From NCBI GenBank assembly GCA_964636255.1, contig CAZWNW010000015.1, forward strand, positions 760 to 64,759: 64,000 nucleotides of DNA. Direction: 5' to 3'. Below are positions 21,435 through 49,871 of the stretch, in pieces (within the stretch, counting starts at the first letter, position 1; every line of letters begins with the position of its first letter). This stretch comes from an uncultured Bacteriovoracaceae bacterium (lineage in GTDB: Bacteria; Bdellovibrionota; UBA2428). The notes under the pieces are model-generated. The model ran no database searches and was not told the origin of the DNA. It worked only from the letters and a program-made list of their open reading frames with translations. The position numbers were made by a program, and so were the translations under genes.

Positions 21435-22523
21435 ATGACTTCACCCATCGATTATACGAAAGATTCCCGATCGGCCTTGGAATCCAAAGAATATGCGCAG
21501 TGGATTGCCTTTGCTCCCTCGGTTTTTCAGGCCTCCCGCGTGCTCTGTGAAAGTGGCATTCTAAGTTCTATTGAAAAAGCAGGAAACGATGGGCTCACAA
21601 TGGATGAGATTGTGAGTGAAGTGAGGCTTTCGAATTATGCTGTGCGCGTTTTGTTGGAAGCTGGTCTGGGAATTGGCCTCGTTTTGGAAAATGAAGATCG
21701 TTATCGCCTGACCAAAACCGCTTGGTTTCTTCTGCATGATCCGCTGACGCAGGCGAATCTCAATTTTACCCATCATGTGAATTATCGAGGATTTTACAAT
21801 CTCGAAGAGGCGATCCGCAGCGGGAAGCCTGAAGGTTTAAAAACTCTTGGAAATTGGTCGACAATTTACGAGGGCTTGAGAGATCTGCCCGATGTTCCGC
21901 GACGGGCATGGTTTAATTTTGATCATCACTATTCCGAGGCTGCATTTCCGGATGCGCTTCCTCATGTGTTTGCTCATAATCCAAAGCGACTTCTGGACAT
22001 CGGGGGCAATACCGGGAAATGGGCGATCGCTTGTGCGCGCTACAATCCCGAAATCAAAATCACCATCATGGATTTGCCAGGGCAGTTGGCCATGGCCAAA
22101 AAGGCGGTGACCGAGGCCGGCTTCACAGATCGTGTTGATTTCGTAGAAGCCAATCTTTTAGATCCACAACAGAAAATTCCAGAAGGTTTTGATGCTGTAT
22201 GGATGAGCCAGTTTCTCGACTGCTTTTCCGAAGCTGAAATTGTTTCGATCATGAGTCGCTGTCGTTCGGCATTGAATCCTGGGGGCCTTGTTCATATTCT
22301 TGAGCCCTTTTGGGATCGGCAAAACTATAAGACCGCAGCATTCTGCTTGCAGCAAATTTCTCTCTATTTCACCGCGATGGCCAATGGAAATAGTCAGATG
22401 TATCGCTCAACCGTTTTTGAAAAGTGTGTCGAGGCTGCAGAATTTCGCATCAAAATCGCGAAAGACAATTTGGGAGTCGGTAGCACTCTTTTCAGCTGTG
22501 AAGTGATTGGTCCTCAAAAATAA
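21435..22523 (+). CDS. class I SAM-dependent O-methyltransferase (plant-type OMT family 2 architecture)
   Basis: N-terminal dimerisation/winged-helix region plus motif I LLDIGGNTGKWAIACA and downstream acidic motifs. 362 aa. Confidence 0.65.
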   Translation: MTSPIDYTKDSRSALESKEYAQWIAFAPSVFQASRVLCESGILSSIEKAGNDGLTMDEIVSEVRLSNYAVRVLLEAGLGIGLVLENEDRYRLTKTAWFLLHDPLTQANLNFTHHVNYRGFYNLEEAIRSGKPEGLKTLGNWSTIYEGLRDLPDVPRRAWFNFDHHYSEAAFPDALPHVFAHNPKRLLDIGGNTGKWAIACARYNPEIKITIMDLPGQLAMAKKAVTEAGFTDRVDFVEANLLDPQQKIPEGFDAVWMSQFLDCFSEAEIVSIMSRCRSALNPGGLVHILEPFWDRQNYKTAAFCLQQISLYFTAMANGNSQMYRSTVFEKCVEAAEFRIKIAKDNLGVGSTLFSCEVIGPQK

Positions 22524-22528
22524 ATTTC

Positions 22529-23401
22529 ATGATGAATCGTAGTTTGTATTTTCACTTCGCTTTCATTGCGCTCTCTCAATTCATTTTTGGCCCACAAGCA
22601 ATCGCGGAAGCAGCACTTTCCAGTCCGGAAAAAGTTCAAAATCCGCATGAGATAGAAAGCTTCGCAGAACTACCTCGAGAGTCGGTCATTATGTTGGCCG
22701 CACCCCGAGAAGTTCAAACGAAGGTCACTTTCTTACGAAACGAGAACGGTAGCTTTTTTGAACCCCAACTCGGTGGAGACCTAGGTATTATTAGGAAGAG
22801 TCGCGGAAGATTCCGTAGTGCCGATCGAAACAGTTTCGATCTTTCGGTCCGCGGTGTTTTTATTCCGCGTTTTCAGTTTGCTTCGAATTCTTTTGATCTT
22901 TGGAATACGGATTTTATTGGGGGAATGGCCGGTATTTATCGCTTTGGACTCAGCGCCCTCGATGTATTTCTCTACCATAAGAGCTCGCATCTGGGTCCCC
23001 GACTTGCCCAAATACGCGCGGATGAAAATCATAGTTTTGAAACAATTCGGGTACTCTACACGAGGCAGTGCCCAGCAGGATTGGAGATTTATTCCGGTCT
23101 CTCTTTCACATTTCATGCCGATCCCGCCCGTATCGCAAACAACGCGGATCTACATCTCGGGGCGAATTGGCGCAGTCCCTATCTCGGCGAACGTTTGTAT
23201 TTCAGTGCGGATCTTGAGGCACGTCAGTATTATCGCGGAATCAACGTGGCCTTGGAGACCGGATATGAATTGGGTAGCAAGATTGCCGGCGGACGTCGTC
23301 AACGAGTCTTTTTGAATTACTACGGTGGTCATTCGCCCATGGGCCAATTCCACCGCAGCACAGAGTCTTCTCTCTCGATGGGAATAGCAGCGGCTTATTA
23401 A
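22529..23401 (+). CDS. putative outer-membrane beta-barrel protein
   Basis: Signal peptide, alternating amphipathic strands and C-terminal aromatic ...GIAAAY. Confidence 0.4.
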   Translation: MMNRSLYFHFAFIALSQFIFGPQAIAEAALSSPEKVQNPHEIESFAELPRESVIMLAAPREVQTKVTFLRNENGSFFEPQLGGDLGIIRKSRGRFRSADRNSFDLSVRGVFIPRFQFASNSFDLWNTDFIGGMAGIYRFGLSALDVFLYHKSSHLGPRLAQIRADENHSFETIRVLYTRQCPAGLEIYSGLSFTFHADPARIANNADLHLGANWRSPYLGERLYFSADLEARQYYRGINVALETGYELGSKIAGGRRQRVFLNYYGGHSPMGQFHRSTESSLSMGIAAAY

Positions 23402-23415
23402 TCTCGCTGAACGTC

Positions 23416-24084
23416 TTAGCCTTCACTCCACGCAATGCTGATGAAATGACCCTGCCATTCCAGCAAGCGGAAATCAAAAAATTGATCAGAGTGTCTCGCT
23501 AAACCAGAATAAATCTTTGAATCATTGGGATCGTTGGAGGCTCGTATTTCTAAGACGCAAAAATCTCGATAGCGTCGTCCTTCATTCTGAGGATCAGCTT
23601 TAAATAGGGCTTCTTTTAATGTCCAGATCTGGATGGGCGGAAGCTCAAGCACTATGTCTTTTTCGTTTCGAATCCGATCCAAAGCAGCACTGCTCAATTT
23701 TCGATCAGCTTTTTCAATATCAATCGCAGCACTTGGGCGAAGAGAGTTAGTTTTCGTGGCTTGTAATCCCACAATGCGAATTGCAGCGCAGGCACTGCGG
23801 GTGTGAGAGAGTGCATAGGCATCAGCGACGCTTCCCTCGGCCAAAAGAGCCAAAAGAGCGGCACGCGAAGTGCACCATTGCGTCCTGCGGTGGGAGGGGG
23901 CGGCCTCATCTAATTTTTTGAGGAGAGCACTGAGCCATGGTTTGGAGTGAAATTTCGATCGAAGTGCATCTATTTCACCCTCAACACGCTCGTCTTCTTT
24001 CCCATTTTCTATATTCAGCTGCGCAATCCAGCTTATTTGCAGCGAGCCATGAGAGAAATTATTGATCAGTCCCGGCTTTTTCAT
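23416..24084 (-). CDS. 4'-phosphopantetheinyl transferase
   Basis: AAIDIEK matches the GxDxE motif and WTLKEALFKA matches the W..KEA..K motif. Confidence 0.65.
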   Translation of the reverse strand: MKKPGLINNFSHGSLQISWIAQLNIENGKEDERVEGEIDALRSKFHSKPWLSALLKKLDEAAPSHRRTQWCTSRAALLALLAEGSVADAYALSHTRSACAAIRIVGLQATKTNSLRPSAAIDIEKADRKLSSAALDRIRNEKDIVLELPPIQIWTLKEALFKADPQNEGRRYRDFCVLEIRASNDPNDSKIYSGLARHSDQFFDFRLLEWQGHFISIAWSEG

Positions 24085-24101: not shown

Positions 24102-25820
24102 TTAGGGGCTAGAGAAAAGCCGAATTTCTCCTGTGCATAAAACTTGGAGTTGCTTAGTAAGCACTTCACCCTGAACGAGGGCGACCGGTCCAAATTCGCG
24201 AGTCGTGCGGACGCGTACCAAGACTTCGGATTCAAGCCTGGGTACAGGGTGAAATTTGAAGTTTCGAAAGCCAACTAAATAAGCTTGCTTTAAATCCGCC
24301 GTAGGTCCGGGCGCGTGCCGCTTCCTAAGGGCAGTTACAAATCCCATCGCCTGGGCGATCCATTCCACACCTGCACTGTCTCGGATCCGGCCGTCGCCAT
24401 CAAGGTAGTTTCGATTTTCGGCGCGCTCGTCCAAAAAGACACGGGCCTGACCTTCGTCTGTGTGGACCCAATCGATTTGCTGAATCCACACAGCCCCGTC
24501 GCGGTGAGGCAGGAAGCTTTGCAGTTCCGTTACCGGCACGGGATCAACGACTAATTGTTTTCCGCGCAAAAGCTCTGCCGCGCCATTTCTCCAGATTTTC
24601 CCTTGAGGACTGAGAGGTAAATCCGAAACAAAATAAAAATGACGTGCGGAAAAACGGCGGCCGTATTTCTGAAGAAGAGCCGACTCAATTTCGATTCGGG
24701 GCAGGCTGCTCTGTCGATTTCCCCGGGGGGCCATCATGAGCCCTAGCTCAGCTCCCAGTCGATTATCAGGAACTTCGAAGGCCATTACTCGAAAAGGAAT
24801 CTTTGATTCCAAAAAAGCTTCGATTTCCGTTAAAGAAAACTTTTCCCCGCCCCGGTTCAATGTCCAATCCCAGCGACCTTTGAATATTAATGAATCCTTC
24901 TCAGTCTCTACAAGATGGTCGCGAATAATTAATTTTTCGGGGTGCTCGATCTTTCCGTCCTGAGCCAGCCCCCAACATAAATTGGGTCCTGAAAATTCGA
25001 TGCCCATCGAATCGACTAGTTTCGCATTCACTCCGGGAAGAAAAGTGCCAATCTCGCCAAACTCAATGGGTTCCACGCCTGGGGCCAAGTGGCTAAGCCC
25101 TGGCGAAGCCTCCGTGCATCCGTAACCGATACTTGGTTTTGCGATGTGAAGTTCGTCGCGAATCGATTTCCACAAAGCCGGGGTGACCGGAGCTCCGCCG
25201 ATAATACAGGTTGGCGACTGCGCAAATATCTTGGAGGAATTTTTCCGCACACATTCCACTAGATCAAAAAAATGCGCGGGTGATCCCAGCGTTAAAGTTT
25301 TCGAAGTGACGCGTTCCTTCCAGATTTCGAGATTGTCTTTTTTATAGGGACCCGTAATGAAATCAAGTTCCCAACCCTTTAGATAGGCCTGCAAATATCC
25401 GAGCGTGAATCCGAAAGTGTGAAAGGGTTGAGGGAGGCAGAAAATTCGGTCGAGATCAAAGCCTTTAAAGTGCGATGAAATAGCAACAAGGGAGCTTTCT
25501 ACATTTTCTTTTGAGTAGAGGACCAATCGAGATTCGCCAGAAACAGAGCCCGAAGTGAAGAGAGCAAACTGGCATTCTTTAAAACTGCGTGAACTTTTCC
25601 AGGATGCCCGATCATGGGATTCTTCGATTTTAACTCGAAGTTCCTTTGCATTCGGCTCTGTCCACTCGCCCAGAAAACTGAGCTCCTCTTTTGGTAGGGA
25701 TTCTACGAAATTTCCCGTGTGAAGAGTGGGCGGCAGAAGAATGAGTGTTTCCTGGCGAGTCCACGCGCGCTCTACAGTTTCGAAAAGTTCTTTTGAATGA
25801 TAGCCGCGCCAAAGAAGCAT
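24102..25820 (-). CDS. AMP-dependent synthetase/ligase (aryl-acid or acyl-ACP activating) with C-terminal ~130-aa extra domain, possibly hotdog-fold
   Basis: FTSGSVSGESRLV (A3-like), GYGCTEAS (A5), GRWDWTLNRGGEKF (A8). The C-terminal region after ~aa 440 is an extension not found in plain ligases. Confidence 0.55.
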   Translation of the reverse strand: MLLWRGYHSKELFETVERAWTRQETLILLPPTLHTGNFVESLPKEELSFLGEWTEPNAKELRVKIEESHDRASWKSSRSFKECQFALFTSGSVSGESRLVLYSKENVESSLVAISSHFKGFDLDRIFCLPQPFHTFGFTLGYLQAYLKGWELDFITGPYKKDNLEIWKERVTSKTLTLGSPAHFFDLVECVRKNSSKIFAQSPTCIIGGAPVTPALWKSIRDELHIAKPSIGYGCTEASPGLSHLAPGVEPIEFGEIGTFLPGVNAKLVDSMGIEFSGPNLCWGLAQDGKIEHPEKLIIRDHLVETEKDSLIFKGRWDWTLNRGGEKFSLTEIEAFLESKIPFRVMAFEVPDNRLGAELGLMMAPRGNRQSSLPRIEIESALLQKYGRRFSARHFYFVSDLPLSPQGKIWRNGAAELLRGKQLVVDPVPVTELQSFLPHRDGAVWIQQIDWVHTDEGQARVFLDERAENRNYLDGDGRIRDSAGVEWIAQAMGFVTALRKRHAPGPTADLKQAYLVGFRNFKFHPVPRLESEVLVRVRTTREFGPVALVQGEVLTKQLQVLCTGEIRLFSSP

Positions 25821-25830: not shown

Positions 25831-27429
25831 CTACCTGTTTTTGAAATAGTCGGGGCCGAAATTTAGTGCCGATGTCCATAGTGTGGATCGGAGTGCGCCA
25901 ATTGATGGGCCCAAACTCTGGTCGCGATCCACGAAAGGCACTGCTCGACGGATTTCTGCGAAGATTTTCTTTGAAACTTCGCCTTTGAGCGCGATTTTTC
26001 GCAAATCTAAAGCCTGAGCTAGGCAGACCAGTTGCAGGCTTTGCAGTGTAAAAAGTTTTTCCAGCATTTCAGAGGCTTGAGCCGCAGCCCCCATGCCCAT
26101 ACTCACCTTGTCTTGATTGTGAGACTCCGTGCTGCGGGACAAAACACTTGAAGGAAAACTTTTTTGTATGATTTCCGCAGTGATTGCGGATGCTGCTTGA
26201 TGCAATCCTTTTAGACCATGATGGAGATGCTTCTCGTCAGGGGGCAGTCGCTCCCAATCCACCAGATTGGGGGGTAGCCCGCGATTTGACTTGTCGTCGA
26301 CCAAGACCAAGATCTGGCGATCCAGAAGATCCGCAAGATTCGCTAGAGAAATCTTCAGGTAGTCCATTCCATGGGCGAGATAGCCGCCATAAAAATTTCC
26401 ACCATTCTGCACTTCGCCCTCGGGATCCAAGAGTGGATTGTCCGTGCAACTATTCACCTCGTCTTCGATCCATCGGGAAATAAGGTCGAGGGTGTCGCGT
26501 TGTGGTCCCAAAATTTGAGGAACGCAGCGAAGGGAATAGCGATCTTGGACATAACCCTCTGTGGTCATGTCGTTTTTCACCGGCACCCGGCTTCCGGAAA
26601 GCGGTCGATAATCTTCGGCATCCAGGTACTGGCTGATTCTTTCAGCAATGAGCGATTGAGATCCGTGCCTTTTGGCTTCGCGATTGACGAGGGGGCCAAA
26701 GGCTTCGCGACGACCACCAAGGGCCAAACACTGCCAGGAAGCTGTTAATGTTGCCATTTCCAATGAAAACTCTGAGAGCCGCCAATTATAAAGTGCATAG
26801 GCACTCATGACGGTCGTACCGTTCACGGTCGAAAGGGCTTCCTTGGGTTTGAAGACGTAAGATTTAAAATCTTTAATCTGCTGGCTTTCGTTGTAGCGCT
26901 CGCCGCGTTGGATTGCTGGTCCTCGACCAGAGAGCATGCGTGCCAGATAAGAGAGTGGCACAAGATCTCCGCTAGCACCTAGCGAACCTTCTTCAGGAAT
27001 TTCAGGGAGACAATCGTTTTCGATACAAAATTTCATTTGGTCCAAGAGCTCAAGGCTCACACCCGAAAAACCACGACTGAGGGCCCTGAGGTGAATCCAG
27101 AGCACTGCGCGTGAAACTTCGCGGGGCAAAATTTTTCCGCTGCCGCAATTTAGATATTCAGCCAAATTTTGTTGAAGCGATTGCGCCTTCTCATAGGGGA
27201 TCACGCGATGGCAACTGTCACCGAAGCCCGTGTTGACCCCATAGATCACCAGGCCGGACTTGAGACGATCCTCTAGTGCTTGACGGCTGCGGGCAATTTT
27301 TTCTCGAAGTGCGGTATCCACTTCGACTTCCGGAAAAGCATCTTCTCTAAGAAAAACGACGGATTGAAGTTCCTCGAGGCTCAAGGCTCTTTCACTCAGG
27401 CAAATTTTCGGCAAGCCTTGGGAAGACAT
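25831..27429 (-). CDS. aromatic amino acid ammonia-lyase (HAL/PAL/TAL family, MIO cofactor)
   Basis: GSLGASGDLVPLSYLA contains the Ala-Ser-Gly MIO-forming triad. Full-length 532 aa. Substrate class not resolvable by eye. Confidence 0.85.
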   Translation of the reverse strand: MSSQGLPKICLSERALSLEELQSVVFLREDAFPEVEVDTALREKIARSRQALEDRLKSGLVIYGVNTGFGDSCHRVIPYEKAQSLQQNLAEYLNCGSGKILPREVSRAVLWIHLRALSRGFSGVSLELLDQMKFCIENDCLPEIPEEGSLGASGDLVPLSYLARMLSGRGPAIQRGERYNESQQIKDFKSYVFKPKEALSTVNGTTVMSAYALYNWRLSEFSLEMATLTASWQCLALGGRREAFGPLVNREAKRHGSQSLIAERISQYLDAEDYRPLSGSRVPVKNDMTTEGYVQDRYSLRCVPQILGPQRDTLDLISRWIEDEVNSCTDNPLLDPEGEVQNGGNFYGGYLAHGMDYLKISLANLADLLDRQILVLVDDKSNRGLPPNLVDWERLPPDEKHLHHGLKGLHQAASAITAEIIQKSFPSSVLSRSTESHNQDKVSMGMGAAAQASEMLEKLFTLQSLQLVCLAQALDLRKIALKGEVSKKIFAEIRRAVPFVDRDQSLGPSIGALRSTLWTSALNFGPDYFKNR

Positions 27430-36882: not shown

Positions 36883-36898
36883 TTTTGCTGACTGCAGT

Positions 36899-40538: not shown

Positions 40539-40626
40539 ATTATTAGTAAATAAATACAGTTTTATCTTTCGAATCAAATTCCTTCTTTTCTGGCAGAGGC
40601 TAAGAGGAATTTGCTAAGCTTCAGAT

Positions 40627-43537: not shown

Positions 43538-45716
43538 TTTGACCTCGAAGCCGGAAAAATTTCGATTTCAGTAATGCTGGAACCGCGGTTGTCGCGCTCA
43601 GATAAGTCGCCAGAGATCCAAAGAAAAGTGTGATTCCAAGATGTTTCAGAACCGGATGCTCGCAGAATATCAAAGGTAGGAATCCGCAGACTGTAGTTGC
43701 TGCATTCAACAAGAGTGTCGTCTCTAGGTCCTGATCCCGCACGGCAATATCCCGTACCGCGGAATCCGTTGCGAATATTCCATAGTCCAGACTGAGGCCG
43801 AAAAGTAAAACGGCAGCCATCAGACTCACGAAACTAAAGGCTTCTCCCAGAAGAAGATGCGCCAGCAACGCCGCGCCAAGACCCGAAAGAAAAGGAAGAA
43901 AGCTGGTGAGGATGGGAAGCAGTCGTCTGTAATGGAAAGCAAGTATCAAGAAGTTCAGTATAAATACAAGCGGCAGGAGTCGCGACAAATCCTGACTCAA
44001 GATTCGCGGAAAAACAGACACGACTTCCCGCAAACTTTGAAAAGCAGGCAAAGTATCTCGAACGATCGAAATCCCTTCTTGGGAATTTCCGCCAGGAAAA
44101 ACAATCAAACTGATTGCCTGATTCTTGGAAAGTAAAGTGCCTGTTAGAAGTGGTAATTCTTTGATCACTTCTTCCAAACTAAGAGAAGTATCTTGAAAAA
44201 ATACGGATGCGCATGCTGACTGCAAAAAGGGATCGAATAGATTTTTCAATTGCGGCGAGAGCCGAGGCAAGAGTTCCTGGCATCCCGCCTTCCAACTTTG
44301 CAAATTGCTTTGAAAGTCGCGCGCGTTGCCGATCAAGTCTCCCAAGGTTTGGGCCTCCGCTCCCACCGTGCCTGCGATACTGTGGATTTTTGAACTTTGA
44401 AGAAGGGCATCTTCCGCCGACTCATGAATCCAGTAAAACGGCATTTGATTCGGCAGATGCTTCCACAGTGAATTTTCAGCTTCTTTTTGATTCGAGCTTT
44501 TGAATTCGAACTGACCAAGCGAAAGATCGACACGGCTGAGCGGCAAAAGAAGCGTGCAAAGCGCAAAAATTATCGAGAGAGTCGCAAAGCCACGAAAGCG
44601 GGGAACGAGGCTAAAGGCTTTCATCTTGAATGCGGAAGCTGAAAAGTAAAAGAGAGAGCGATAAAGTAGGTAACTACAGATGAGACCCAGACTCGCGAAA
44701 ATCATCATTTCTGAAAGAAGGGGGATTTTGCTGGCAGAAAGGCACAGGAGGGCCGTAAGTGTCGTGAGTAGTCCGATGCGATTGCTGCGCCAGACCTTTT
44801 GTTGATTGCTTGAAAATGCGGCATGAATTCCATAGTCAAGCCCCAGGCCGATGAGTCCTCCTCCGAAAGATAGAGTCAGTGCATGAACGCTGCCTTGAAA
44901 TAAAATCAGCAGGCCGGCGGCCAAAACTACGGAAAAGAGCGGAATCAGCAAAAGTAGAAAATAAGCCCCGCGCCTCCGGCACCAGAGAAGCAAGGCCAAG
45001 ATGAAAAAGACAGGTAGCGAGAGATAACTAACAAGACTGAGATCAGATATCACCTGGGCTTGGTTGCTTCTGGCGGCATTGTGCGGACCGATGAGAGCCA
45101 CCTGAAGTTGCAAAGACTCGGCTTCACGCTCCCAACTTGAAATGAGCTCGTGGAACCTCGACGCGTCGCTTGCGTTCTGGGAGAAGAGAATGGGTATCAA
45201 AAGATCACGGCTGCCGGGTAAAAGCGTCATGCCACCTTCACTGTCGAATCTGTCTTGAATACGTCGGGCGAAGTTTTCCCAGGATCGTAGTGGATCATGG
45301 CGCATGATCTCAAACTCCGAAGATCGGCTATCAAGAAAGGCCATGGCTAAATTCGCGCGCAGCTTCGCGGACAGCTTCTCGACGCCGGGGAAGTTTTCAC
45401 GAAGGGGAAGGGCTTTGACCCACTCTTTCACCAGTGGCAAATAGTCCGAAGCTTCCTGCAGGCACTCGATACGCTGGACATGGGGGCTGGGCGCGGCCCG
45501 CATGCGTCGGCAAAGTTCTTGGCTTTTCTCGCTGATCCCGTCTTGAGCTCCGTTTTTGATCCACAACGTGTTCCACCAGAAGGCCGGATAGGCGGTGGGA
45601 GCTAGGACTTCTTGGCGCAATTTATCTGGTAAAAAGCGGGAGACATCGCTTTCAATCCAGGCCGCCGCTGCTTTTTCGCTCAGAAAAAAACTCAGCAATA
45701 GAAAAAAAAGTTTCAT
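43527..45716 (-). CDS. MMPL/RND-superfamily exporter
   Basis: 729 aa with two blocks of ~6 TM helices each preceded by large soluble loops. Internal duplication pattern of MMPL transporters. Overlaps flanking genes (operon). Confidence 0.65.
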   Translation of the reverse strand: MKLFFLLLSFFLSEKAAAAWIESDVSRFLPDKLRQEVLAPTAYPAFWWNTLWIKNGAQDGISEKSQELCRRMRAAPSPHVQRIECLQEASDYLPLVKEWVKALPLRENFPGVEKLSAKLRANLAMAFLDSRSSEFEIMRHDPLRSWENFARRIQDRFDSEGGMTLLPGSRDLLIPILFSQNASDASRFHELISSWEREAESLQLQVALIGPHNAARSNQAQVISDLSLVSYLSLPVFFILALLLWCRRRGAYFLLLLIPLFSVVLAAGLLILFQGSVHALTLSFGGGLIGLGLDYGIHAAFSSNQQKVWRSNRIGLLTTLTALLCLSASKIPLLSEMMIFASLGLICSYLLYRSLFYFSASAFKMKAFSLVPRFRGFATLSIIFALCTLLLPLSRVDLSLGQFEFKSSNQKEAENSLWKHLPNQMPFYWIHESAEDALLQSSKIHSIAGTVGAEAQTLGDLIGNARDFQSNLQSWKAGCQELLPRLSPQLKNLFDPFLQSACASVFFQDTSLSLEEVIKELPLLTGTLLSKNQAISLIVFPGGNSQEGISIVRDTLPAFQSLREVVSVFPRILSQDLSRLLPLVFILNFLILAFHYRRLLPILTSFLPFLSGLGAALLAHLLLGEAFSFVSLMAAVLLFGLSLDYGIFATDSAVRDIAVRDQDLETTLLLNAATTVCGFLPLIFCEHPVLKHLGITLFFGSLATYLSATTAVPALLKSKFFRLRGQNEA

Positions 45717-46354
45717 GGGTGACTAGCATCCGGCTTTTTCAAAATAGTTTTTGAAAAAGAAAGACGCATTTGGTCTCCGCTCACTTCGTGAATGACCACT
45801 TCTTTGATCCAGGCGTTTCGGTCCCAATGGATCTCCAAGCTCGTAAATGGCAGAGAAGAATCTGTCTGCGGCTCAAGCGTTACAAAATTCTTTCCGCCCG
45901 ATTTAATGCGAAAATTTCGCAAACTCTCGTCAGCCTGCATAAGAAAGAGGTTTCGCAAGTGTTGGATGGCAAAAGTCGAGGTTAGTTTCTCGGGAAGTTT
46001 CTTCAAATTCAATACGCGTTCCGTTCCGCCATCTTCGGACATGCGGATTTTATCGGCCTCCAGTTGCCATCGGCTCCGGGCGGGTTTTAGCGTCTCCCAA
46101 ATTAGAATTCCTCGATCTCGATCAATAGTGACATTGCCTTCAGATTCTATGCTGATTTTAAAAGCCTTGATCTCCTTTTGCATGCGGAACTGCGAGTCTA
46201 TTCGTGCCACTTTTGAGTGGGATTCCACCCATTTGCGAAAGGAATCTTCAAATTTTGAGGGGCCCCCGGATGGTGGGATTTCAGCCTTGAGGGGTGCATT
46301 CAGAAGGCTGATAAAGAGGCAGAGAAGCAGAAAGAGGCGTTGCTGATTGATCAC
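45713..46354 (-). CDS. LolA-like periplasmic lipoprotein-carrier family protein
   Basis: Signal peptide MINQQRLFLLLCLFISLLNAPLKA. ~190-aa mature size. 4-nt overlap with the MMPL gene. Assignment largely by context. Confidence 0.5.
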   Translation of the reverse strand: MINQQRLFLLLCLFISLLNAPLKAEIPPSGGPSKFEDSFRKWVESHSKVARIDSQFRMQKEIKAFKISIESEGNVTIDRDRGILIWETLKPARSRWQLEADKIRMSEDGGTERVLNLKKLPEKLTSTFAIQHLRNLFLMQADESLRNFRIKSGGKNFVTLEPQTDSSLPFTSLEIHWDRNAWIKEVVIHEVSGDQMRLSFSKTILKKPDASHP

Positions 46355-46379
46355 GCCGATAGTAAATTATTTTTTTACA

Positions 46380-46670
46380 ATGAATCAAGGCGCGACCCTA
46401 AAAAAAGCTGAAGGGGATCTCTTTCAGGAAATCGTTGAAACTCTCTTGTCGTCGCTTAACTTGAAGCATATTGATCGCTCCCGCTTGGGTCCTGAGACCC
46501 TTTTAGGAAAGGGCGGAATGGATCTAGACTCCATTGAGATGCTCGAAATTGTCATCGCTTTTGAACAAAAATACGGCCTTAAGGTCAGTGGACCCGAAGA
46601 AGGTCGAGAAAAATTCCACACCTTGGGCAGTCTTCAGCACTTCATTGAAAGCGCCAGGGATCAGGCCTGA
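46380..46670 (+). CDS. acyl carrier protein
   Basis: GMDLDSIEMLEIVIAFEQ has the DSI phosphopantetheine site. Track ORF from 46347 would overlap divergent LolA, so the internal Met (MNQGATLKK) is preferred. Confidence 0.65.
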   Translation: MNQGATLKKAEGDLFQEIVETLLSSLNLKHIDRSRLGPETLLGKGGMDLDSIEMLEIVIAFEQKYGLKVSGPEEGREKFHTLGSLQHFIESARDQA

Positions 46671-46691: not shown

Positions 46692-47864
46692 ATGGGAAAG
46701 AATCCTAAATTCAGGGTCGTCGTCAGCGGTACCGGTACCCTAAGTCCCTTTGGTGAGGGAAGCGATCAACTTCTCCGGGCGGCACTAGCGGAAACTACAG
46801 CGGTTCGAGATGGCCTGGGTAGAATTCCCGAGGAAGTACTAGCGCGTCATCACAATTCTAAGAATGAGGGCATGGAGCTGGCTCTTTGTAGGCCCGCACT
46901 TGAGGAAGCATTGCGTGATGCCTCTTGGGGTAGCTTGGGACCTCGCGATGGCTTCATTTTGGCAACGACAGTTGGCCAACCCAGTCTTTGGCAACGACAG
47001 TTGATGGATTGTTTGAAAAAGGGAGAAGCGGTCAAAGCAGATGAACTAGCCGCAGTTTTGCGCAAACAACCTCTGGGTACATTGCTCGAGGATCTCTGCG
47101 AAATCATGGATTTTCAGGGGCCGCGCCTCTTGGTCACTTCGGCTTGTGCGGCCGGAACCCAGGCCTTGGCATTGGCCGCCCTTTGGATCGAGGAAGGCCG
47201 CGTGGATCGTTGCCTTGTCGGCGGCATCGAATTTTTGTGTGATCTTACGGTCGAAGGATTTCGTAGCCTCCAGCTTTTAAGCCCCGAAGCCTGTCGCCCC
47301 TTTGATCTCAATCGTTCGGGTATCAATCTCTCGGAAACCGCGAGTTTTATTTGTTTGGAATCTGCGAAAAATGTTCCGCAGTCTCGCCATCAAGCCTATG
47401 TGCTGGGCTGCGGTTTTTCGACTGACGCCTATCACTCCGCATCGCCGGAACCTTCGGGTAGTGGCATTGAACGTTCGATGAGAATGGCGATGGAAATGGC
47501 CGATCTCTCCCCCTTGGATATCGATTGGATACATGCTCACGGCACGGCTTCGATCGCGAACGATCTCAGCGAGGGGAACGCAGTGAGCCGAATTTTTTCC
47601 GCAGATCCCGAACACTCGCCGATCTCGTCGACGAAGTGGCTTCATGGCCACGCGCTGGGAGCTTCGGGAGTTTTGGAATCGATCTTATGTGTGCACGCTC
47701 TTCGCGAAGGCTGGCGTTTGAGGAGTTTTGGTCTCAGCGAGAAAGATCCCGCAATTTCCTATCCAATTCTTCGAAAAAATGAGCGCACGCGTCCAAGGTT
47801 TCTTTTGAAAAATACCCTGGGTTTTGGCGGCAATAATGCAAGTCTTGTCCTGGGTGCGCCATGA
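46692..47864 (+). CDS. beta-ketoacyl-ACP synthase
   Basis: LLVTSACAAGTQALAL has the catalytic Cys. HAHGTASIANDL, WLHGHALGASG and NTLGFGGNNASLVLG complete the KS motifs. Confidence 0.8.
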   Translation: MGKNPKFRVVVSGTGTLSPFGEGSDQLLRAALAETTAVRDGLGRIPEEVLARHHNSKNEGMELALCRPALEEALRDASWGSLGPRDGFILATTVGQPSLWQRQLMDCLKKGEAVKADELAAVLRKQPLGTLLEDLCEIMDFQGPRLLVTSACAAGTQALALAALWIEEGRVDRCLVGGIEFLCDLTVEGFRSLQLLSPEACRPFDLNRSGINLSETASFICLESAKNVPQSRHQAYVLGCGFSTDAYHSASPEPSGSGIERSMRMAMEMADLSPLDIDWIHAHGTASIANDLSEGNAVSRIFSADPEHSPISSTKWLHGHALGASGVLESILCVHALREGWRLRSFGLSEKDPAISYPILRKNERTRPRFLLKNTLGFGGNNASLVLGAP

Positions 47865-48589
47865 GTTATCACGTCAAAGGCTGGGGCATCGCAGAATGCA
47901 GTGAAAGCGAGAGACTCGCCGATGATCCACGATTCCGACGAGCGAGTCCCTTAATGTTGTGGGCCGCAGCTGCAATTGAAAATCTCCTGAAGAACACTGA
48001 GAAAACGTGGGGTGATGCGCGCACGGCCTACATACTTGCTTCCAGTTATGGGGAGCTGACGTTGACCACAGAGTTTCTTCGGTCTCTGTCGTTGGACGGT
48101 GTCGCGCGTCCGATGCTTTTTCAAAGTAGTCTCTACAATGCGACGATTGGATTTTTGTCGATTCATTACCAGTGGCGTGGACCCACATTTACGCTTAGCA
48201 ATCGTCTCGCCTCGTCCGAGAGCGCCTTGGAAATGGCCAGTACGTTGATGCGCTCAGGTCTTGCTGATGATTGTTTAGTGATCGCCATGGACGAAGCTGT
48301 TGAATATTTTCAGGGAGCTTATTTAAAAATTTATGATCGCCCATTTGTATTCAAGGGTGGGGCTTCGGTTCTGTGGCTCAGTCGGAATAACAAAAATGCG
48401 CGCTCAAGTTTTGAACTCTATCCGGATGAAGACCAAGGACGTCGTTTGAGCGAATTGCACCCCATCGAATATTCAGACACCAATGTGCTACTAGAAGTCG
48501 CAAAACGCCTGGCGAAGAAGCAGACCGAAGAAGATTTCATCATCCCTAAACCCTGGGGCGCCTCGGTGCGTGTTCACTGGTCAGTGTGA
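47861..48589 (+). CDS. KS-like chain-length-factor protein (no catalytic Cys)
   Basis: 242 aa. ATGA overlap with the upstream KS. KS N-terminal-domain-like segments lack the Cys/His/His triad. Confidence 0.55.
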   Translation: MSYHVKGWGIAECSESERLADDPRFRRASPLMLWAAAAIENLLKNTEKTWGDARTAYILASSYGELTLTTEFLRSLSLDGVARPMLFQSSLYNATIGFLSIHYQWRGPTFTLSNRLASSESALEMASTLMRSGLADDCLVIAMDEAVEYFQGAYLKIYDRPFVFKGGASVLWLSRNNKNARSSFELYPDEDQGRRLSELHPIEYSDTNVLLEVAKRLAKKQTEEDFIIPKPWGASVRVHWSV

Positions 48590-48592
48590 GCG

Positions 48593-49243
48593 ATGAGTTT
48601 CTTGGATTTTAGTTTTCGTAGTTCCGCATTGAAGATGCACCGGCTGCCGGAATCTGAAAGGCCCCGTATTTATTTCAGCTTTGATGACGGACCCCGCGCG
48701 GGGAGTACGGAGCAGGTTTTAGACCTCTTCGATGAATTAGCTTTGACTGCTACATTTTTTGTCATCACCGAGCGGGTCCGGAAAAATCGCGCGCTTTTCG
48801 AGCGAACCGTTAAATCGGGACATGCAATTGGAGATCACAGCCTCGACCACAACTATTGGAACTATCTATCCTCTCGCGCCCAAGTCCAGAATTGGATCAA
48901 AGCCAGTTGGGAGGAACTTTCCGAGATGCTGGGGCGCCGCCCCGTTGGTTTTCGACCACCGGCGGGAGTGGTGACACCGCCCCTTCTTGCCAGCTTGGAA
49001 GAGCTTGGTATTCCGCTGATTTTATGGACCCATCGTTACTTTGATACCCGAAAGCCTCCGACCGAGATGGTGATGGCTCGCTCACTTCGACAGGCGCGGG
49101 ATGGAGATTTGCTTTTACTTCACGACGCTCTGCTGCCAGATCAGCAACGGCAGCTTTGTCAGACGCTTCGTCCAGTCCTGATTGAGCTTCGGGCTCGCGA
49201 CCTCTTGCCAAGTGCCATAGCGTCACTGAGAGGCGACACTTAA
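48593..49243 (+). CDS. polysaccharide deacetylase (NodB homology) family protein
   Basis: YFSFDDGP, GHAIGDHSLDHNY and LLLHD motifs. Confidence 0.65.
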   Translation: MSFLDFSFRSSALKMHRLPESERPRIYFSFDDGPRAGSTEQVLDLFDELALTATFFVITERVRKNRALFERTVKSGHAIGDHSLDHNYWNYLSSRAQVQNWIKASWEELSEMLGRRPVGFRPPAGVVTPPLLASLEELGIPLILWTHRYFDTRKPPTEMVMARSLRQARDGDLLLLHDALLPDQQRQLCQTLRPVLIELRARDLLPSAIASLRGDT

Positions 49244-49244
49244 A

Positions 49245-49871
49245 TTGAAACGCTTAAAGACTTTATTTGAAATCATCAAGATCCTCTGGAGTGGAGATAA
49301 TGTCGGTGACGTGGCAGTTTTGAAGCTTAGTCTCTTCTCGCGATCCGAGGGGCTACTTCCCACCAGTGAAGCCGCTCGAAAAATGAAGGAAACTAATTTC
49401 AAGGCGATCGAAATCGAAGAGCTGGCACTTTATCCCGCCGGAAGTTTTGGACGTGCTTATTTCGAATTTATGAAGCGTCATCGGCTGAAACCCTTCAATT
49501 TTTCAGATCGCGTCGAGTCCTATTATGAAAATTATCCTATCGCCATTCGTTACGCCCGAATTCACGACATGGTTCACGTTCTCTTGGGCTTCGAGGCCGA
49601 TTTTGAAGGCGAGCTAGGGGTCTACGCCTTTGTGGGGGCTTAGAATTATGTGCCTATCTTAACAAAAGCCTATCGGACGGCTCAGATCGTGCTTCGTTTA
49701 CTCAAGCCATGGAGCTGGCAGCGTTTGAGGGAAGTTGAAAGACGTGGAGCTATTTTGGCAATTGGAGCTCGTAACTTGATCCTAGAGCCATTGGAGACGA
49801 GGCTGGGGGATGATCTGGAAAGCCTCCGACGAGAGTATTTGCCCAATTGGCAGGCATTGGACCCGAAATAG
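49245..49871 (+). pseudogene. Coq4-family-like gene interrupted by an in-frame TAG (49641-49643)
   Basis: ORF 49245..49643 contains ARIHDMVHVLLGFEADFEGELG, matching the Coq4 HDxxH(x)nE zinc motif. ORF 49650..49871 is in the same frame two codons after the TAG. Confidence 0.4.

What the first reader, a model, noticed from the sequence alone, without database searches (positions are those of the whole stretch)
21435..49871. Aryl-polyene / flexirubin-type type-II-PKS-like biosynthetic gene cluster (~28 kb) in a non-Bacteroidetes-looking genome
Co-localised genes match the aryl-polyene and flexirubin cluster inventory.
- Starter and tailoring: MIO-type aromatic amino acid ammonia-lyase, AMP-ligase, O-methyltransferase, PPTase.
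- Chain building: three KS, two Cys-less CLF-like partners, two ACPs, FabZ-like dehydratase, SDR ketoreductase, CrtI-like FAD oxidoreductase.
- Lipid attachment and export: LPLAT acyltransferase, GT2/LpxL-like acyltransferase, NodB deacetylase, LolA-like and MMPL exporter.

The ammonia-lyase plus ligase implies a coumarate/cinnamate-type aryl starter, as in flexirubin. That differs from the chorismate-derived 4-HBA starter of proteobacterial APE clusters. The flanking gene content (TIGR02147-like paralog, pseudopilins, ~50% GC) does not look like Bacteroidetes. This is plausibly a hybrid or new subtype of membrane-anchored aryl polyene pigment system. No dialkylresorcinol genes (DarA/DarB-like KSIII) were seen.
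Basis: partly seen in the sequence, partly recalled or inferred. Interest (0 to 1): 0.8.

Follow-up and report, generated by a model that had tools for sequence, protein, structure and literature searches.

The report
Aryl-polyene pigment-lipid gene cluster, Bdellovibrionota
This is a real but fairly ordinary member of the very widespread aryl-polyene (APE) pigment-lipid gene cluster family, found here in an uncultured Bdellovibrio-like bacterium and split by about 5 kb of unrelated genes.

Summary

- **Direct counterparts.** Thirteen window proteins or domains match the characterised E. coli CFT073 ApeB, D, E, F, I, J, L, M, O, P, Q and R proteins at 21-45% identity. Two KS map to ApeO.
- **Ketosynthases.** Their best solved-structure matches are ApeR and ApeO-ApeC, not FabB or FabF.
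- **Host.** It is a Bdellovibrionota MAG. The core block is syntenic in about 20 other Bdellovibrionota MAG loci.
- **Insertion.** Window 36364-41184 is lineage-specific and not part of the cluster.

An ammonia-lyase inside an APE cluster does not set it apart from proteobacterial clusters, because Acinetobacter baumannii and Ralstonia APE clusters carry one too. The window lyase (37-39% identity) and ligase resemble those, not the flexirubin enzymes. The flexirubin-like features are the accessory genes: C45 acyltransferase, CrtI-like oxidoreductase, NodB and a second KS/CLF pair.

The likely product is an outer-membrane aryl-polyene glycolipid primed from an ammonia-lyase-made cinnamate-type acid, probably p-coumarate.

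Verdict: new member of a known kind, with low to moderate interest.

The parts
21435..22523 (+). SAM methyltransferase of the ApeB/FlxJ family (aryl head-group methylation)
   Evidence: NCBIfam FlxJ_fam_MTase scores 514.8 bits against a cut-off of 560; E. coli ApeB scores 470.4 on the same model. It is 45% identical to ApeB over the full length and 50% to the Persicobacter flexirubin-cluster methyltransferase.
22529..23401 (+). DUF1207 protein with a signal peptide. Membership in the cluster rests on position only.
   Evidence: Pfam DUF1207 at 65.3 bits. Not found in related loci.
23416..24084 (-). Probable Sfp-type phosphopantetheinyl transferase
   Evidence: Pfam ACPS scores 25.1 bits against a cut-off of 25. 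A 34% homologue lies in L026, and the A. baumannii APE cluster also ends with a PPTase.
24102..25820 (-). Adenylate-forming ligase (residues about 1-420) fused to an ApeP-like hotdog dehydratase (about 425-572)
   Evidence: Pfam AMP-binding. The N-terminal part is distantly ApeH-like: hhalign 95.8%, 21% identity. The C-terminal part matches E. coli ApeP at hhalign 95.7%, E 9e-9, and the Persicobacter 143-aa dehydratase at 96.5%. In some relatives the two parts are separate genes.
25831..27429 (-). MIO-type aromatic amino acid ammonia-lyase of PAL/TAL type, not a histidine ammonia-lyase
   Evidence: PF00221 at 431.7 bits. The ASG motif is present. The selectivity switch is Tyr-Leu, aligned to RsTAL His89-Leu90. 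Motif 2 reads HNQDK, against NQEDH in HutH. It is 37-39% identical to the lyases inside the Ralstonia and A. baumannii APE clusters.
27464..28126 (-). CLF1, the Cys-less partner of KS1
   Evidence: It overlaps the KS1 stop codon. Lys occupies the Cys position. There is no Pfam hit. hhalign gives 76.6% to CLF2 and 92% to the 194-aa ORF that follows the equivalent KS in the Persicobacter cluster. The AlphaFold model (pLDDT 73) has XdApeC 6QSP_B as its best PDB match, E 5.6e-4, TM about 0.42.
28123..29241 (-). KS1, an ApeO-like ketosynthase with Cys-His-His
   Evidence: 32% identical to E. coli ApeO. Best PDB hits are 6QSP_A XdApeO and 7F28_B AbApeO. Triad shown. It is 29% identical over nearly its full length to the second KS of the Persicobacter cluster.
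29276..29644 (+). ApeI-like hotdog dehydratase
   Evidence: Pfam FabA at 29.6 bits and ApeI-like at 24.8 bits. 36% identical to E. coli ApeI over 56 aa. The HFPGDPILP motif is present. Orthologues in L001 and L002 carry Pfam ApeI-like.
29665..29985 (-). ACP1 (ApeF-like)
   Evidence: NCBIfam PRK05350 scores 69.3 bits against a cut-off of 65; E. coli ApeF defines that model at 146.6 bits. 36% identical to ApeF. DSL serine present.
29990..31216 (-). KS2, an ApeR-like ketosynthase
   Evidence: 39% identical to E. coli ApeR over the full length. Best PDB hits are 4EWG PpApeR at 277 bits and 7F27 AbApeR at 275 bits, against about 185 bits for FabB (PDB ids checked). PRK09116 is its best NCBIfam model.
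31220..32728 (-). CrtI/CrtD-like FAD oxidoreductase with an unknown role
   Evidence: Pfam Amino_oxidase; NCBIfam carotenoid isomerase and CrtD far below cut-off. Conserved in 14 of the related loci. 28% identical over the full length to the FAD oxidoreductase that sits next to C45 in the Persicobacter and Aureispira clusters.
32725..33498 (-). Ketoreductase (ApeQ/FlxB-like SDR)
   Evidence: 41% identical to E. coli ApeQ. FlxB model 262.4 bits against a cut-off of 340, the same level as ApeQ at 266.3.
33453..34298 (+). Lysophospholipid acyltransferase (ApeD-like)
   Evidence: Pfam Acyltransferase. 33% identical to ApeD. HX4D motif NHRSILD present.
34253..36337 (+). GT2-DUF2062-LpxL-type glycosyl/acyl-transferase (ApeJ-like)
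   Evidence: Pfam finds three domains. Identity to E. coli ApeJ is 37% for the GT part and 25% for the acyltransferase part.
36364..41184 (.). Interruption that is not part of the conserved cluster. It holds a CBM60-like lipoprotein, a 252-aa OMP-barrel-like protein, a 912-aa secreted protein and a 185-aa ORF.
   Evidence: None of the four has a homologue in any of the roughly 20 syntenic Bdellovibrionota loci, where the GT2/LpxL and DUF3261/C45 genes are adjacent. Pfam results.
41355..41912 (-). ApeN/DUF3261-like (LolB-like) lipoprotein
   Evidence: It has a lipoprotein signal. jackhmmer converges on the same ORF set as the Pfam-DUF3261 protein of L002, which occupies the same position after C45.
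41909..43537 (-). C45-family (acyl-CoA:6-APA acyltransferase-like) autoproteolytic acyltransferase
   Evidence: NCBIfam C45_proenzyme scores 139.4 bits against a cut-off of 85. 33% identical to the C45 protein of the Persicobacter flexirubin-type cluster.
43527..45716 (-). MMPL/RND exporter (ApeM-like)
   Evidence: Pfam MMPL at 28.6 bits; HAE3 at 54.7 bits. phmmer against ApeM gives E 1.6e-8, at 21-24% identity.
45713..46354 (-). LolA-like carrier (ApeL-like)
   Evidence: phmmer against ApeL gives E 5e-7, 27% identity. LolA2_flexi scores 28.9 bits, below its cut-off.
46347..46670 (+). ACP2 (ApeE-like, presumed starter ACP)
   Evidence: PRK09184 scores 53.8 bits against a cut-off of 70; ApeE scores 89.5 on that model. 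33% identical to ApeE. DSI serine present.
46692..47864 (+). KS3, an ApeO-like ketosynthase
   Evidence: 37% identical to E. coli ApeO. Best PDB hits are 9S5H_B, 7F28_B AbApeO and 6QSP_A XdApeO. PRK09185 is its best NCBIfam model.
47861..48589 (+). CLF2 (ApeC-like chain-length factor)
   Evidence: Pfam Ketoacyl-synt_2 scores 38.7 bits against a cut-off of 25. Best PDB hit is 7F28_A AbApeC, E 0.0024. Arg occupies the Cys position, as in E. coli ApeC.
48593..49243 (+). NodB-family de-N-acetylase
   Evidence: Pfam Polysacc_deac_1 at 94 bits. 43% identical to the L009 neighbour and 29% to the Persicobacter cluster deacetylase.
49245..49871 (+). Coq4-like protein interrupted by an in-frame TAG at 49641-49643
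   Evidence: Sequence. The Pfam Coq4 match (50.6 bits) runs across the stop, covering profile positions 69-214 of 221.
50417..50893 (+).
   Evidence: 43-47% homologues lie directly after the ligase/dehydratase in L014 and L047. No Pfam family.

Best explanation
This is a biosynthetic gene cluster of the aryl-polyene (APE) lipid family in a Bdellovibrionota genome. Steps marked 'inferred' rest on homology to characterised enzymes, not on any test here.

**Proposed pathway**
1. The PAL/TAL-type ammonia-lyase deaminates an aromatic amino acid, most likely tyrosine, to a cinnamate-type acid (p-coumarate). Inferred.
2. The ApeH-like adenylating enzyme activates that acid and loads it on the ApeE-like ACP2. 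Inferred from ApeH biochemistry.
3. Two KS/CLF heterodimers (KS1-CLF1 and KS3-CLF2) and the ApeR-like KS2 extend it with malonyl units.
4. After each extension the ApeQ-like ketoreductase reduces the chain, and the ApeI-like dehydratase together with the ligase-fused ApeP-like dehydratase dehydrates it. No enoyl reduction follows, so a conjugated polyene results.
5. The ApeB/FlxJ-type methyltransferase methylates the aryl head group.
6. The ApeD-like LPLAT and the ApeJ-like GT2/LpxL enzyme attach the polyene, and probably a second acyl chain carried by ACP1, to a glycerophospho-aminosugar anchor, as in Xenorhabdus APE lipids.
7. NodB and the C45 acyltransferase may remodel the aminosugar N-acyl group. 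Speculative.
8. The MMPL, LolA-like and DUF3261 proteins move the lipid to the outer membrane.

**What is shown here:** the gene identities, the active-site residues and the synteny.
For: - **One-to-one homology with E. coli CFT073 ApeB, D, E, F, I, J, L, M, O, P, Q and R.** BLASTP/phmmer at 21-45% identity; the ApeP link is a weak BLASTP hit (E 0.006) confirmed by hhalign.
- **The KS are Ape-type, not housekeeping.** KS2 scores 275-277 bits against ApeR structures and about 185 bits against FabB. The best solved matches of KS3 and KS1 include the ApeO structures; the best match of CLF2 is ApeC.
- **Active sites.** Cys-His-His in all three KS; Cys replaced in both CLFs.
- **All nine core genes of the published ape definition have counterparts.** The definition lists apeO, R, E, F, C, I, P, Q and M (bioRxiv 10.1101/2020.12.19.423268).
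- **Synteny.** The core block keeps its order in about 20 Bdellovibrionota loci. Some relatives carry a flavin halogenase between lyase and ligase, which fits a phenolic head group.
- **The lyase is PAL/TAL type.** It has Leu where HAL has His, and NQD rather than NQED in motif 2.
- **The lyase groups with APE-cluster lyases.** It resembles the lyases embedded in the A. baumannii and Ralstonia APE clusters.
- **An ApeH can use the predicted starter.** A. baumannii ApeH loads p-coumarate onto ApeE in vitro (PMC12624758).
- **Roles of the attachment and export enzymes.** ApeD, ApeJ, ApeM, ApeL and ApeN roles are taken and PMC8253772.
Against: - No product chemistry is available, and every relative is an uncultured MAG.
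- Lyase substrate is unresolved. The Tyr-Leu switch is neither the canonical TAL pair (His-Leu) nor the PAL pair (Phe-Leu).
- The ligase is only 21% identical to ApeH, so whether it loads an ACP or makes a CoA thioester is unknown.
- No ApeK-type thioesterase, ApeA or ApeG homologue was found.
- The Coq4-like gene has an in-frame stop, and the cluster is split by a 4.8-kb insertion, so the cluster might be partly decayed.
- The CLF1, LolA and MMPL assignments rest on weak similarity.
Confidence: 0.82

Rival explanations
1. It is a true flexirubin pathway. The polyene acid would be esterified to a dialkylresorcinol made by darA/darB genes located elsewhere in the genome.
For: - In Chitinophaga pinensis the dar genes (Cpin_6850/6851) lie far from the flx cluster (Cpin_1853-1877), so their absence from this window does not exclude them (PMC3992019).
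- The window shares C45, the CrtI-like oxidoreductase, NodB and the second KS/CLF pair with a Bacteroidota flexirubin-type cluster.
Against: - No KSIII/DarB-like gene was found among the ORFs scanned across 64 kb.
- The lyase and ligase are not of the flexirubin lineage.
- No thioesterase is present.
- The ApeD- and ApeJ-like lipid-attachment enzymes are complete and point to a glycolipid anchor.
Confidence: 0.08
2. These are ordinary type II fatty-acid synthesis genes that merely resemble a polyketide cluster.
For: The KS, KR, DH and ACP all belong to FAS-like superfamilies.
Against: - All three KS score far below the FabF and FabB equivalog cut-offs. For example, KS2 scores 259 against 493.75 for FabF, and its best model is the ApeR model PRK09116.
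- The best solved homologues are ApeR and ApeO.
- Two Cys-less CLFs are present.
- No FabD, FabH, FabI or Acc genes are present.
- The cluster holds a lyase, methyltransferase, GT, MMPL and LolA instead.
Confidence: 0.01
3. The cluster is a decaying remnant that no longer makes the pigment in this organism.
For: - In-frame TAG in the Coq4-like gene.
- 4.8-kb insertion of unrelated genes between the ApeJ-like and ApeN-like genes.
- Every cluster protein is only 30-60% identical to its nearest relatives, while a flanking transporter has 77-80% relatives.
Against: - All catalytic genes are intact full-length ORFs with their active-site residues.
- The insertion falls between genes, not within one.
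- The single stop could be an assembly error, and the Coq4-like protein is not a core APE component.
Confidence: 0.07
4. The product is a conjugated polyene lipid without an aryl head group, or with a non-phenyl one such as urocanate-derived, and the lyase serves another purpose.
For: - The Tyr-Leu switch is non-canonical.
- Xenorhabdus APE lipids also contain a non-aryl conjugated C26:5 acyl chain made by the same machinery.
Against: - Both lyase motifs are PAL/TAL type and differ from HutH.
- An ApeB-type aryl methyltransferase is present.
- A halogenase sits beside the lyase in relatives.
- The lyase-ligase-KS1-CLF1 block is invariant in relatives.
Confidence: 0.03

Closest known systems
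E. coli CFT073 / Xenorhabdus doucetiae ape cluster (ApeA-R), which produces APE lipids
   Same: Counterparts of ApeB, D, E, F, I, J, L, M, N, O, P, Q and R are present, plus an ApeC-like CLF. The ApeN and ApeC counterparts show no direct similarity to the E. coli proteins and rest on family models and ApeC structures. The logic is the same: KS-CLF plus ApeR, a KR, two DHs, two ACPs, a head-group methyltransferase, LPLAT plus GT/acyltransferase, and MMPL/LolA/LolB-like export.
   Different: - It has an ammonia-lyase.
- It has a second KS/CLF pair.
- It has a CrtI-like flavoprotein, a C45 acyltransferase, NodB, a Coq4-like protein and a PPTase.
- It lacks ApeA, ApeG and the ApeK thioesterase.
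- The ApeP-like DH is fused to the ligase.
- The ligase is only distantly ApeH-like.
- The E. coli type uses UbiC-derived 4-hydroxybenzoate (PMC8253772).
APE clusters of Acinetobacter baumannii and Ralstonia solanacearum, which are proteobacterial and carry an embedded aromatic ammonia-lyase
   Same: An aromatic ammonia-lyase of the same lineage sits inside the cluster, at 37-39% identity and with the HNQDK motif. The ligases are long (552-563 aa) and fused to a hotdog domain. A. baumannii also carries a PPTase and an FAD oxidoreductase.
   Different: - The switch residues are Phe-His or Tyr-His there, against Tyr-Leu here.
- Ralstonia fuses ApeI, not ApeP, to the ligase.
- They have an ApeK thioesterase.
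- They have no C45 acyltransferase, no NodB and no second KS/CLF pair.
Flexirubin biosynthesis clusters of Bacteroidota (C. pinensis flxA-flxY; Persicobacter psychrovividus plasmid pPP6 cluster)
   Same: - A lyase-primed aryl polyene.
- Two KS/CLF-type pairs plus a further KS.
- C45 acyltransferase next to a CrtI-like FAD oxidoreductase.
- NodB deacetylase.
- FlxJ-family methyltransferase at 50% identity.
- LolA, and MMPL/LPLAT functions.

(PMC3992019.)
   Different: - The lyase is a different lineage: 29% identity and Ser-His against Tyr-Leu.
- The ligase is unrelated to the FlxY-position ligase.
- GT2 and LpxL are fused here, as in ApeJ.
- No thioesterase is present.
- No dialkylresorcinol genes are in view.
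- The host phylum differs.
Xanthomonadin / Lysobacter aryl-polyene clusters
   Same: A type II KS/CLF polyene synthase with two DHs and a KR. The pigment sits in the outer membrane, and the head group is halogenated in Xanthomonas, as in some Bdellovibrionota relatives that carry a halogenase (PMC3691225).
   Different: Xanthomonadin uses a 3-hydroxybenzoate starter and no ammonia-lyase (PMC3691225). No direct sequence comparison was made here.

Membership tests
Aryl-polyene (ape) BGC family, core genes as defined in bioRxiv 10.1101/2020.12.19.423268 | ApeO-type ketosynthase | tested here: met
   KS3 is 37% identical to E. coli ApeO. Best PDB hits include 7F28_B and 6QSP_A, both ApeO. PRK09185 is its best NCBIfam model; ApeO itself scores 556 on it.
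Aryl-polyene (ape) BGC family | ApeR-type (FabB-like) ketosynthase | tested here: met
   KS2 is 39% identical to ApeR over the full length. It scores 275-277 bits against 7F27 and 4EWG, against about 185 bits for FabB.
Aryl-polyene (ape) BGC family | ApeC-type chain-length factor lacking the active-site Cys, encoded next to the KS | tested here: met
   CLF2 scores 38.7 bits on Pfam PF13723 against a cut-off of 25. Its best PDB hit is AbApeC 7F28_A, E 0.0024. Arg occupies the Cys position. It overlaps the end of KS3.
Aryl-polyene (ape) BGC family | Two dedicated ACPs (ApeE and ApeF) | tested here: met
   ACP2 is 33% identical to ApeE and ACP1 36% to ApeF. ACP1 passes the PRK05350 cut-off; ACP2 is below the PRK09184 cut-off at 53.8 against 70.
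Aryl-polyene (ape) BGC family | Two hotdog dehydratases (ApeI and ApeP) | tested here: met
   The ApeI-like ORF at 29276-29644 is supported. The ApeP-like domain fused to the ligase gives hhalign 95.7%.
Aryl-polyene (ape) BGC family | ApeQ ketoreductase and ApeM RND/MMPL transporter | tested here: met
   The KR is 41% identical to ApeQ. MMPL scores 28.6 bits on Pfam against a cut-off of 20.5, and phmmer against ApeM gives E 1.6e-8.
Aryl-polyene (ape) BGC family | Product is an aryl-polyene carboxylate or lipid (yellow pigment, absorbance about 430 nm) | not testable with these tools
   Needs expression and LC-MS/UV analysis.
Aryl-polyene (ape) BGC family | antiSMASH 'arylpolyene' rule (APE_KS1 / APE_KS2 profiles) | not tested
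   antiSMASH is not available here. Published surveys do call APE BGCs in Bdellovibrionota MAGs (PMC13635244).
Flexirubin pathway (Bacteroidota) | FlxA-type tyrosine ammonia-lyase | tested here: not met
   The NCBIfam FlxA model scores 289.9 bits against a cut-off of 700. Identity to the Persicobacter cluster lyase is 29%. The switch is Tyr-Leu against Ser-His there.
Flexirubin pathway (Bacteroidota) | FlxY-type 4-coumarate-CoA ligase | tested here: inconclusive
   hhalign gives only 1.4% probability against the ligases at the FlxY position of the Persicobacter and Aureispira clusters. C. pinensis FlxY itself could not be fetched.
Flexirubin pathway (Bacteroidota) | DarA/DarB dialkylresorcinol genes | tested here: inconclusive
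   None were found among the ORFs scanned in the 64-kb window. In C. pinensis they lie at a separate locus, and the rest of this genome is not available.
Flexirubin pathway (Bacteroidota) | Accessory set: C45 acyltransferase, FAD oxidoreductase, polysaccharide deacetylase, second KS plus short partner | tested here: met
   Identity to the Persicobacter pPP6 cluster proteins is 28-33%. The CLF1-like partner gives hhalign 92%.
Flexirubin pathway (Bacteroidota) | FlxJ-family methyltransferase at the curated equivalog score | tested here: not met
   It scores 514.8 bits against a cut-off of 560. That is close, and higher than E. coli ApeB at 470.4.
Housekeeping type II fatty-acid synthase | FabF/FabB equivalog-level KS plus a fab operon (FabD, FabH, FabI, Acc) | tested here: not met
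   The KS score 107-259 bits against the FabF cut-off of 493.75. No FabD, FabH, FabI or Acc genes were found among the genes scanned in and around the interval.

The most novel reading that the evidence does not exclude
The Bdellovibrionota clusters would form a distinct, so far uncharacterised APE subfamily. Its features are a Tyr-Leu ammonia-lyase, a ligase fused to an ApeP-like dehydratase, two KS/CLF pairs, and a NodB plus C45 pair acting like NodB/NodA to swap the N-acyl group of the aminosugar anchor. The subfamily would make a structurally new aryl-polyene glycolipid in the outer membrane of uncultured predatory bacteria. The head group might derive from a substrate other than tyrosine.
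Probability: 0.2. Interest if true: 0.45.

Novelty: new member of a known kind. Interest (0 to 1): 0.25.

Why it matters
APE clusters are regarded as the most widespread bacterial biosynthetic gene cluster family, and their lipids protect cells against oxidative stress. This case adds a well-resolved example from Bdellovibrionota, a phylum of mostly predatory bacteria. All the related loci recovered here come from uncultured genomes.

It shows that the lyase-primed layout is not a Bacteroidota speciality. The gene content mixes a proteobacterial-type lyase and ligase with flexirubin-type accessory enzymes.

A by-product may be more useful than the cluster itself. The much-studied Acinetobacter baumannii APE cluster also contains an aromatic ammonia-lyase that the papers read here do not mention. 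That raises the testable question of whether its real starter is p-coumarate rather than 4-hydroxybenzoate.

None of this changes the current understanding of the family.

Tried and rejected
- **Exact-sequence look-ups.** The lyase was not found in the contig index. Cluster-member look-ups returned no names or accessions. The source organism is therefore inferred only from homologues.
- **Literature on lyases in non-Bacteroidota APE clusters.** Searches found nothing explicit. The Cimermancic 2014 paper is not held.
- **Ligase against plasmid records.** Only an irrelevant Paracoccus hit came back.
- **Close relatives of the flanking transporter** (77-80% identity). They are not syntenic with the window beyond an MscS gene, so they say nothing about whether near relatives carry the cluster.
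- **E. coli ApeC, ApeN, ApeH and ApeK.** BLAST and phmmer gave no direct hits. The first three links were recovered only with profile, iterative or structural methods. No thioesterase was found.
- **CLF1.** Sequence-only evidence was weak (hhalign 8.8% to ApeC). Its assignment rests on position, the 92% match to the Persicobacter partner ORF, and a modest fold match (TM about 0.42).
- **Housekeeping fatty-acid synthesis and a histidine ammonia-lyase role.** Both were considered and rejected (see the rival explanations).

Full report

Left arm:
- Methyltransferase, 21435-22523.
- DUF1207 protein.
- Weak PPTase.
- ANL ligase, 24102-25820.
- MIO-type aromatic ammonia-lyase, 25831-27429 (PF00221, 431.7 bits).
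- Short ORF (CLF1) overlapping the end of KS1.
- Hotdog dehydratase on the opposite strand, 29276-29644.
- ACP1, KS2, a CrtI-like flavoprotein and an SDR ketoreductase.
- LPLAT.
- GT2-DUF2062-LpxL fusion, 34253-36337.

Right arm:
- Lipoprotein, 41355-41912.
- C45 acyltransferase.
- MMPL transporter.
- LolA-like protein.
- ACP2, KS3 and CLF2.
- NodB.
- Coq4-like gene.

An alignment shows Cys-His-His in KS1, KS2 and KS3. The catalytic Cys is replaced by Lys in CLF1 and by Arg in CLF2, the latter as in E. coli ApeC. Both ACPs keep the phosphopantetheine serine, and the LPLAT keeps its HX4D motif. No KSIII/DarB-like gene was found among the ORFs scanned across the 64 kb. GC is 0.47-0.53.

**Host and conservation.** The lyase itself is on record in NCBI on a 65,991-bp contig. 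Its next-best relatives are only 52-54% identical, and where named they are Oligoflexia, Bdellovibrionales or Pseudobdellovibrio.
- A scan of one genome per species found lyases of at least 41% identity almost only in Bdellovibrionota, all from MAGs and none from isolates. The few exceptions are MAG contigs labelled Gemmatimonas (L015) and Pseudomonadota (L047). Next come actinomycetes at about 40%.
- A flanking SLC13 transporter is 70% identical to a Bdellovibrionales MAG protein, which supports the phylum call independently of the cluster.
- In about 20 of these loci one block recurs in the same order: ligase, lyase, CLF1, KS1, ApeI-like DH, ACP1, KS2, (CrtI-like), KR, LPLAT, GT2/LpxL, (DUF3261, C45, MMPL). 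Two of them, from the same population, carry a flavin halogenase between lyase and ligase.
- The four ORFs at 36364-41184 have no counterpart in any relative. They are a CBM60-like lipoprotein, an OMP-barrel-like protein, a 912-aa secreted protein and a 185-aa ORF. In the relatives the ApeJ-like and DUF3261/C45 genes are adjacent, so this stretch is an insertion that splits the cluster.

**Direct test against the characterised APE system.** I fetched the E. coli CFT073 ape cluster (L084, ApeA-R) and compared all window proteins with it.

| Window protein | E. coli counterpart | Identity |
|---|---|---|
| Methyltransferase | ApeB | 45%, full length |
| KS2 | ApeR | 39% |
| KS3 | ApeO | 37% |
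| KS1 | ApeO | 32% |
| Ketoreductase | ApeQ | 41% |
| GT2/LpxL | ApeJ | 37% (GT part), 25% (acyltransferase part) |
| LPLAT | ApeD | 33% |
| ACP1 | ApeF | 36% |
| ACP2 | ApeE | 33% |
| Small dehydratase | ApeI | 36% |
| LolA-like | ApeL | 27% |
| MMPL | ApeM | 21-24% |

- The last 150 residues of the ligase form an ApeP-like hotdog domain (hhalign 95.7%, E 9e-9). In some relatives this domain is a separate gene.
- The lipoprotein at 41355-41912 belongs with the DUF3261/ApeN proteins, by jackhmmer convergence and by position.
- Searches of solved structures give ApeR (4EWG, 7F27; 275-277 bits against about 185 for FabB) as the best match for KS2. ApeO (7F28_B, 6QSP_A) is among the best matches for KS3 and KS1, and ApeC (7F28_A) is the best match for CLF2. 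The PDB identities were checked in PMC8358021.
- The NCBIfam models that best fit the window proteins (PRK09116, PRK09185, PRK09184, PRK05350) are the ones E. coli ApeR, ApeO, ApeE and ApeF hit above cut-off.
- All nine core genes used to define ape clusters (apeO, R, E, F, C, I, P, Q, M; bioRxiv 10.1101/2020.12.19.423268) therefore have counterparts.
- The housekeeping-FAS alternative fails. FabF/FabB equivalog scores are far below cut-off, and there is no fab operon.

**CLF1.** This 220-aa protein has no Pfam hit and only 12 homologues in the large protein database. Four observations support calling it a second chain-length-factor-like partner:
- It carries a conserved SPSKFVHTLPN motif.
- It aligns weakly with CLF2 (hhalign 76.6%).
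- It aligns at 92% with the 194-aa ORF that follows the equivalent KS in a Bacteroidota cluster.
- Its AlphaFold model (pLDDT 73) has X. doucetiae ApeC as its best PDB match (E 5.6e-4, TM about 0.42), followed by other thiolase-fold enzymes.

The assignment is reasonable, though the evidence is modest.

**The starter enzymes.**
- The lyase has the ASG MIO motif.
- At the selectivity switch (Rhodobacter TAL His89-Leu90, PAL Phe-Leu, HAL Ser-His) it has Tyr-Leu. So do 116 of 120 homologues.
- At the second motif it has HNQDK, like PAL/TAL enzymes, whereas HutH sequences have NQEDH.
- It is therefore not a histidine ammonia-lyase. Tyr against Phe cannot be decided from sequence.
- An ApeB-type aryl methyltransferase, and a halogenase in relatives, favour a phenolic (tyrosine-derived) head group. 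This is an inference.

- A tblastn of the lyase against annotated plasmid, chromid and mislabelled chromosome records led to the Ralstonia solanacearum megaplasmid and the Acinetobacter baumannii APE clusters.
- Both carry an aromatic ammonia-lyase between the ApeJ-like and ApeK-like genes.
- These lyases are 37-39% identical to the window enzyme and share HNQDK. Their switch is Tyr-His or Phe-His.
- Lyase-linked Ape-like genes also occur in Planctomycetota, Syntrophales and a Fibrobacter MAG.
- By contrast, the lyase of a Bacteroidota flexirubin-type cluster (Persicobacter plasmid pPP6) is only 29% identical and has the HAL-like Ser-His switch. That matches what Schoner et al. reported for FlxA (PMC3992019). 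The FlxA model scores 290 against a cut-off of 700.
- The ligase is distantly ApeH-like (hhalign 95.8% to E. coli ApeH, 91.7% to A. baumannii). It is unrelated to the ligase at the FlxY position (hhalign 1.4%).

**What is flexirubin-like.** The Persicobacter cluster shares several features with the window that the E. coli, Acinetobacter and Ralstonia clusters lack:
- C45 acyltransferase (33% identity).
- The adjacent CrtI-like FAD oxidoreductase (28%, full length).
- NodB deacetylase (29%).
- A second KS (29%) followed by its short partner.
- The best methyltransferase match (50%).

The gene content is thus a mosaic: a proteobacterial-type lyase and ligase and a fused ApeJ, combined with flexirubin-type accessory genes. 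'Hybrid' is a fair description. It is still variation within one very large known family, and APE clusters have already been reported in Bdellovibrionota MAGs by antiSMASH surveys (PMC13635244).

**Mechanism.** The gene identities are shown here; the chemistry is inferred.
1. The lyase makes a cinnamate-type acid, probably p-coumarate.
2. The ApeH-like enzyme adenylates it and loads the ApeE-like ACP2. ApeH loads ACPs directly, and the A. baumannii enzyme accepts p-coumarate (PMC8253772; PMC12624758).
3. KS1-CLF1, KS3-CLF2 and KS2 extend the chain. The ketoreductase and the ApeI and ApeP dehydratases act after each extension, with no enoyl reduction, giving the polyene.
4. The ApeB-type enzyme methylates the aryl head group.
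5. The ApeD- and ApeJ-like enzymes build the lipid anchor, by analogy with the Xenorhabdus GalNAc-phosphoglycerol APE lipids.
6. NodB and the C45 acyltransferase might exchange the aminosugar N-acyl group, as NodB/NodA do in Nod-factor synthesis. This is speculation from general knowledge.
7. MMPL, LolA-like and DUF3261 proteins export the lipid to the outer membrane.

Open points:
- The roles of the CrtI-like, Coq4-like and DUF1207 proteins.
- The absence of a thioesterase.
- The in-frame TAG in the Coq4-like gene.

**Verdict.** This is a new member of a known kind, with some variant features: the Tyr-Leu lyase, the ligase-ApeP fusion and the mosaic accessory set. Interest is low to moderate.

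Noticed in passing
window 49245-49871 (+), stop at 49641-49643: The Coq4-like gene is interrupted by an in-frame TAG, and the Pfam Coq4 match continues across it. It could be a pseudogene, an assembly error or read-through.
   Followed up: partly
window 36364-41184: Four ORFs split the cluster and are absent from all syntenic relatives. They are a CBM60-like lipoprotein, a 252-aa OMP-barrel-like protein, a 912-aa secreted protein with a faint Calx-beta match, and a 185-aa ORF. Their function is unknown.
   Followed up: partly
window 50417-50893 (+); L014 14643-15053; L047 4078-4428: A small secreted protein with no family has 43-47% homologues directly downstream of the ligase/dehydratase in two related loci.
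   Followed up: partly
L086 14992-16527 (A. baumannii) and L085 14926-16512 (Ralstonia solanacearum megaplasmid): Both well-known proteobacterial APE clusters contain an aromatic ammonia-lyase. The A. baumannii APE papers read here assume a 4-hydroxybenzoate starter and do not mention the lyase, although their ApeH also loads p-coumarate in vitro.
   Followed up: partly
L087 189-22734 (Persicobacter psychrovividus plasmid pPP6): A complete flexirubin-type cluster is carried on a 157-kb plasmid of a Cytophagales bacterium. A partial one lies on an Aureispira plasmid (L088).
   Followed up: partly
window 20451-21305 (+): A secreted, Cys-rich 284-aa protein has about three internal repeats of roughly 65 residues (…NSDSCSGE…TSAWG…CHNI…). 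It matches no family.
   Followed up: no
L002 11555-12742 and L003 3478-4665: Two related loci from the same population have a tryptophan-halogenase-type flavin halogenase inserted between lyase and ligase, which suggests halogenated head groups in those relatives.
   Followed up: no
window 17089-18428 (-), 19029-20402 (+), 52775-53914 (+), 54545-55504 (-), 57141-57953 (+), 5256-6314 (-): Flanking genes, none with a visible link to the cluster:
- Two pseudopilin-like proteins with N-terminal methylation motifs.
- An Hsp70/MreB-like ATPase.
- An RCC1-repeat protein.
- A second NodB-family deacetylase.
- A DUF4423/HTH (TIGR02147-like) protein.
- An ORF with an HNH nuclease motif.
   Followed up: no
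L089-L091: Genomes whose SLC13 transporter is 77-80% identical to the window's show no APE genes within 10 kb of it. Every window cluster protein is at most 60% identical to its nearest relative. The cluster may therefore be patchily distributed among close relatives.
   Followed up: partly
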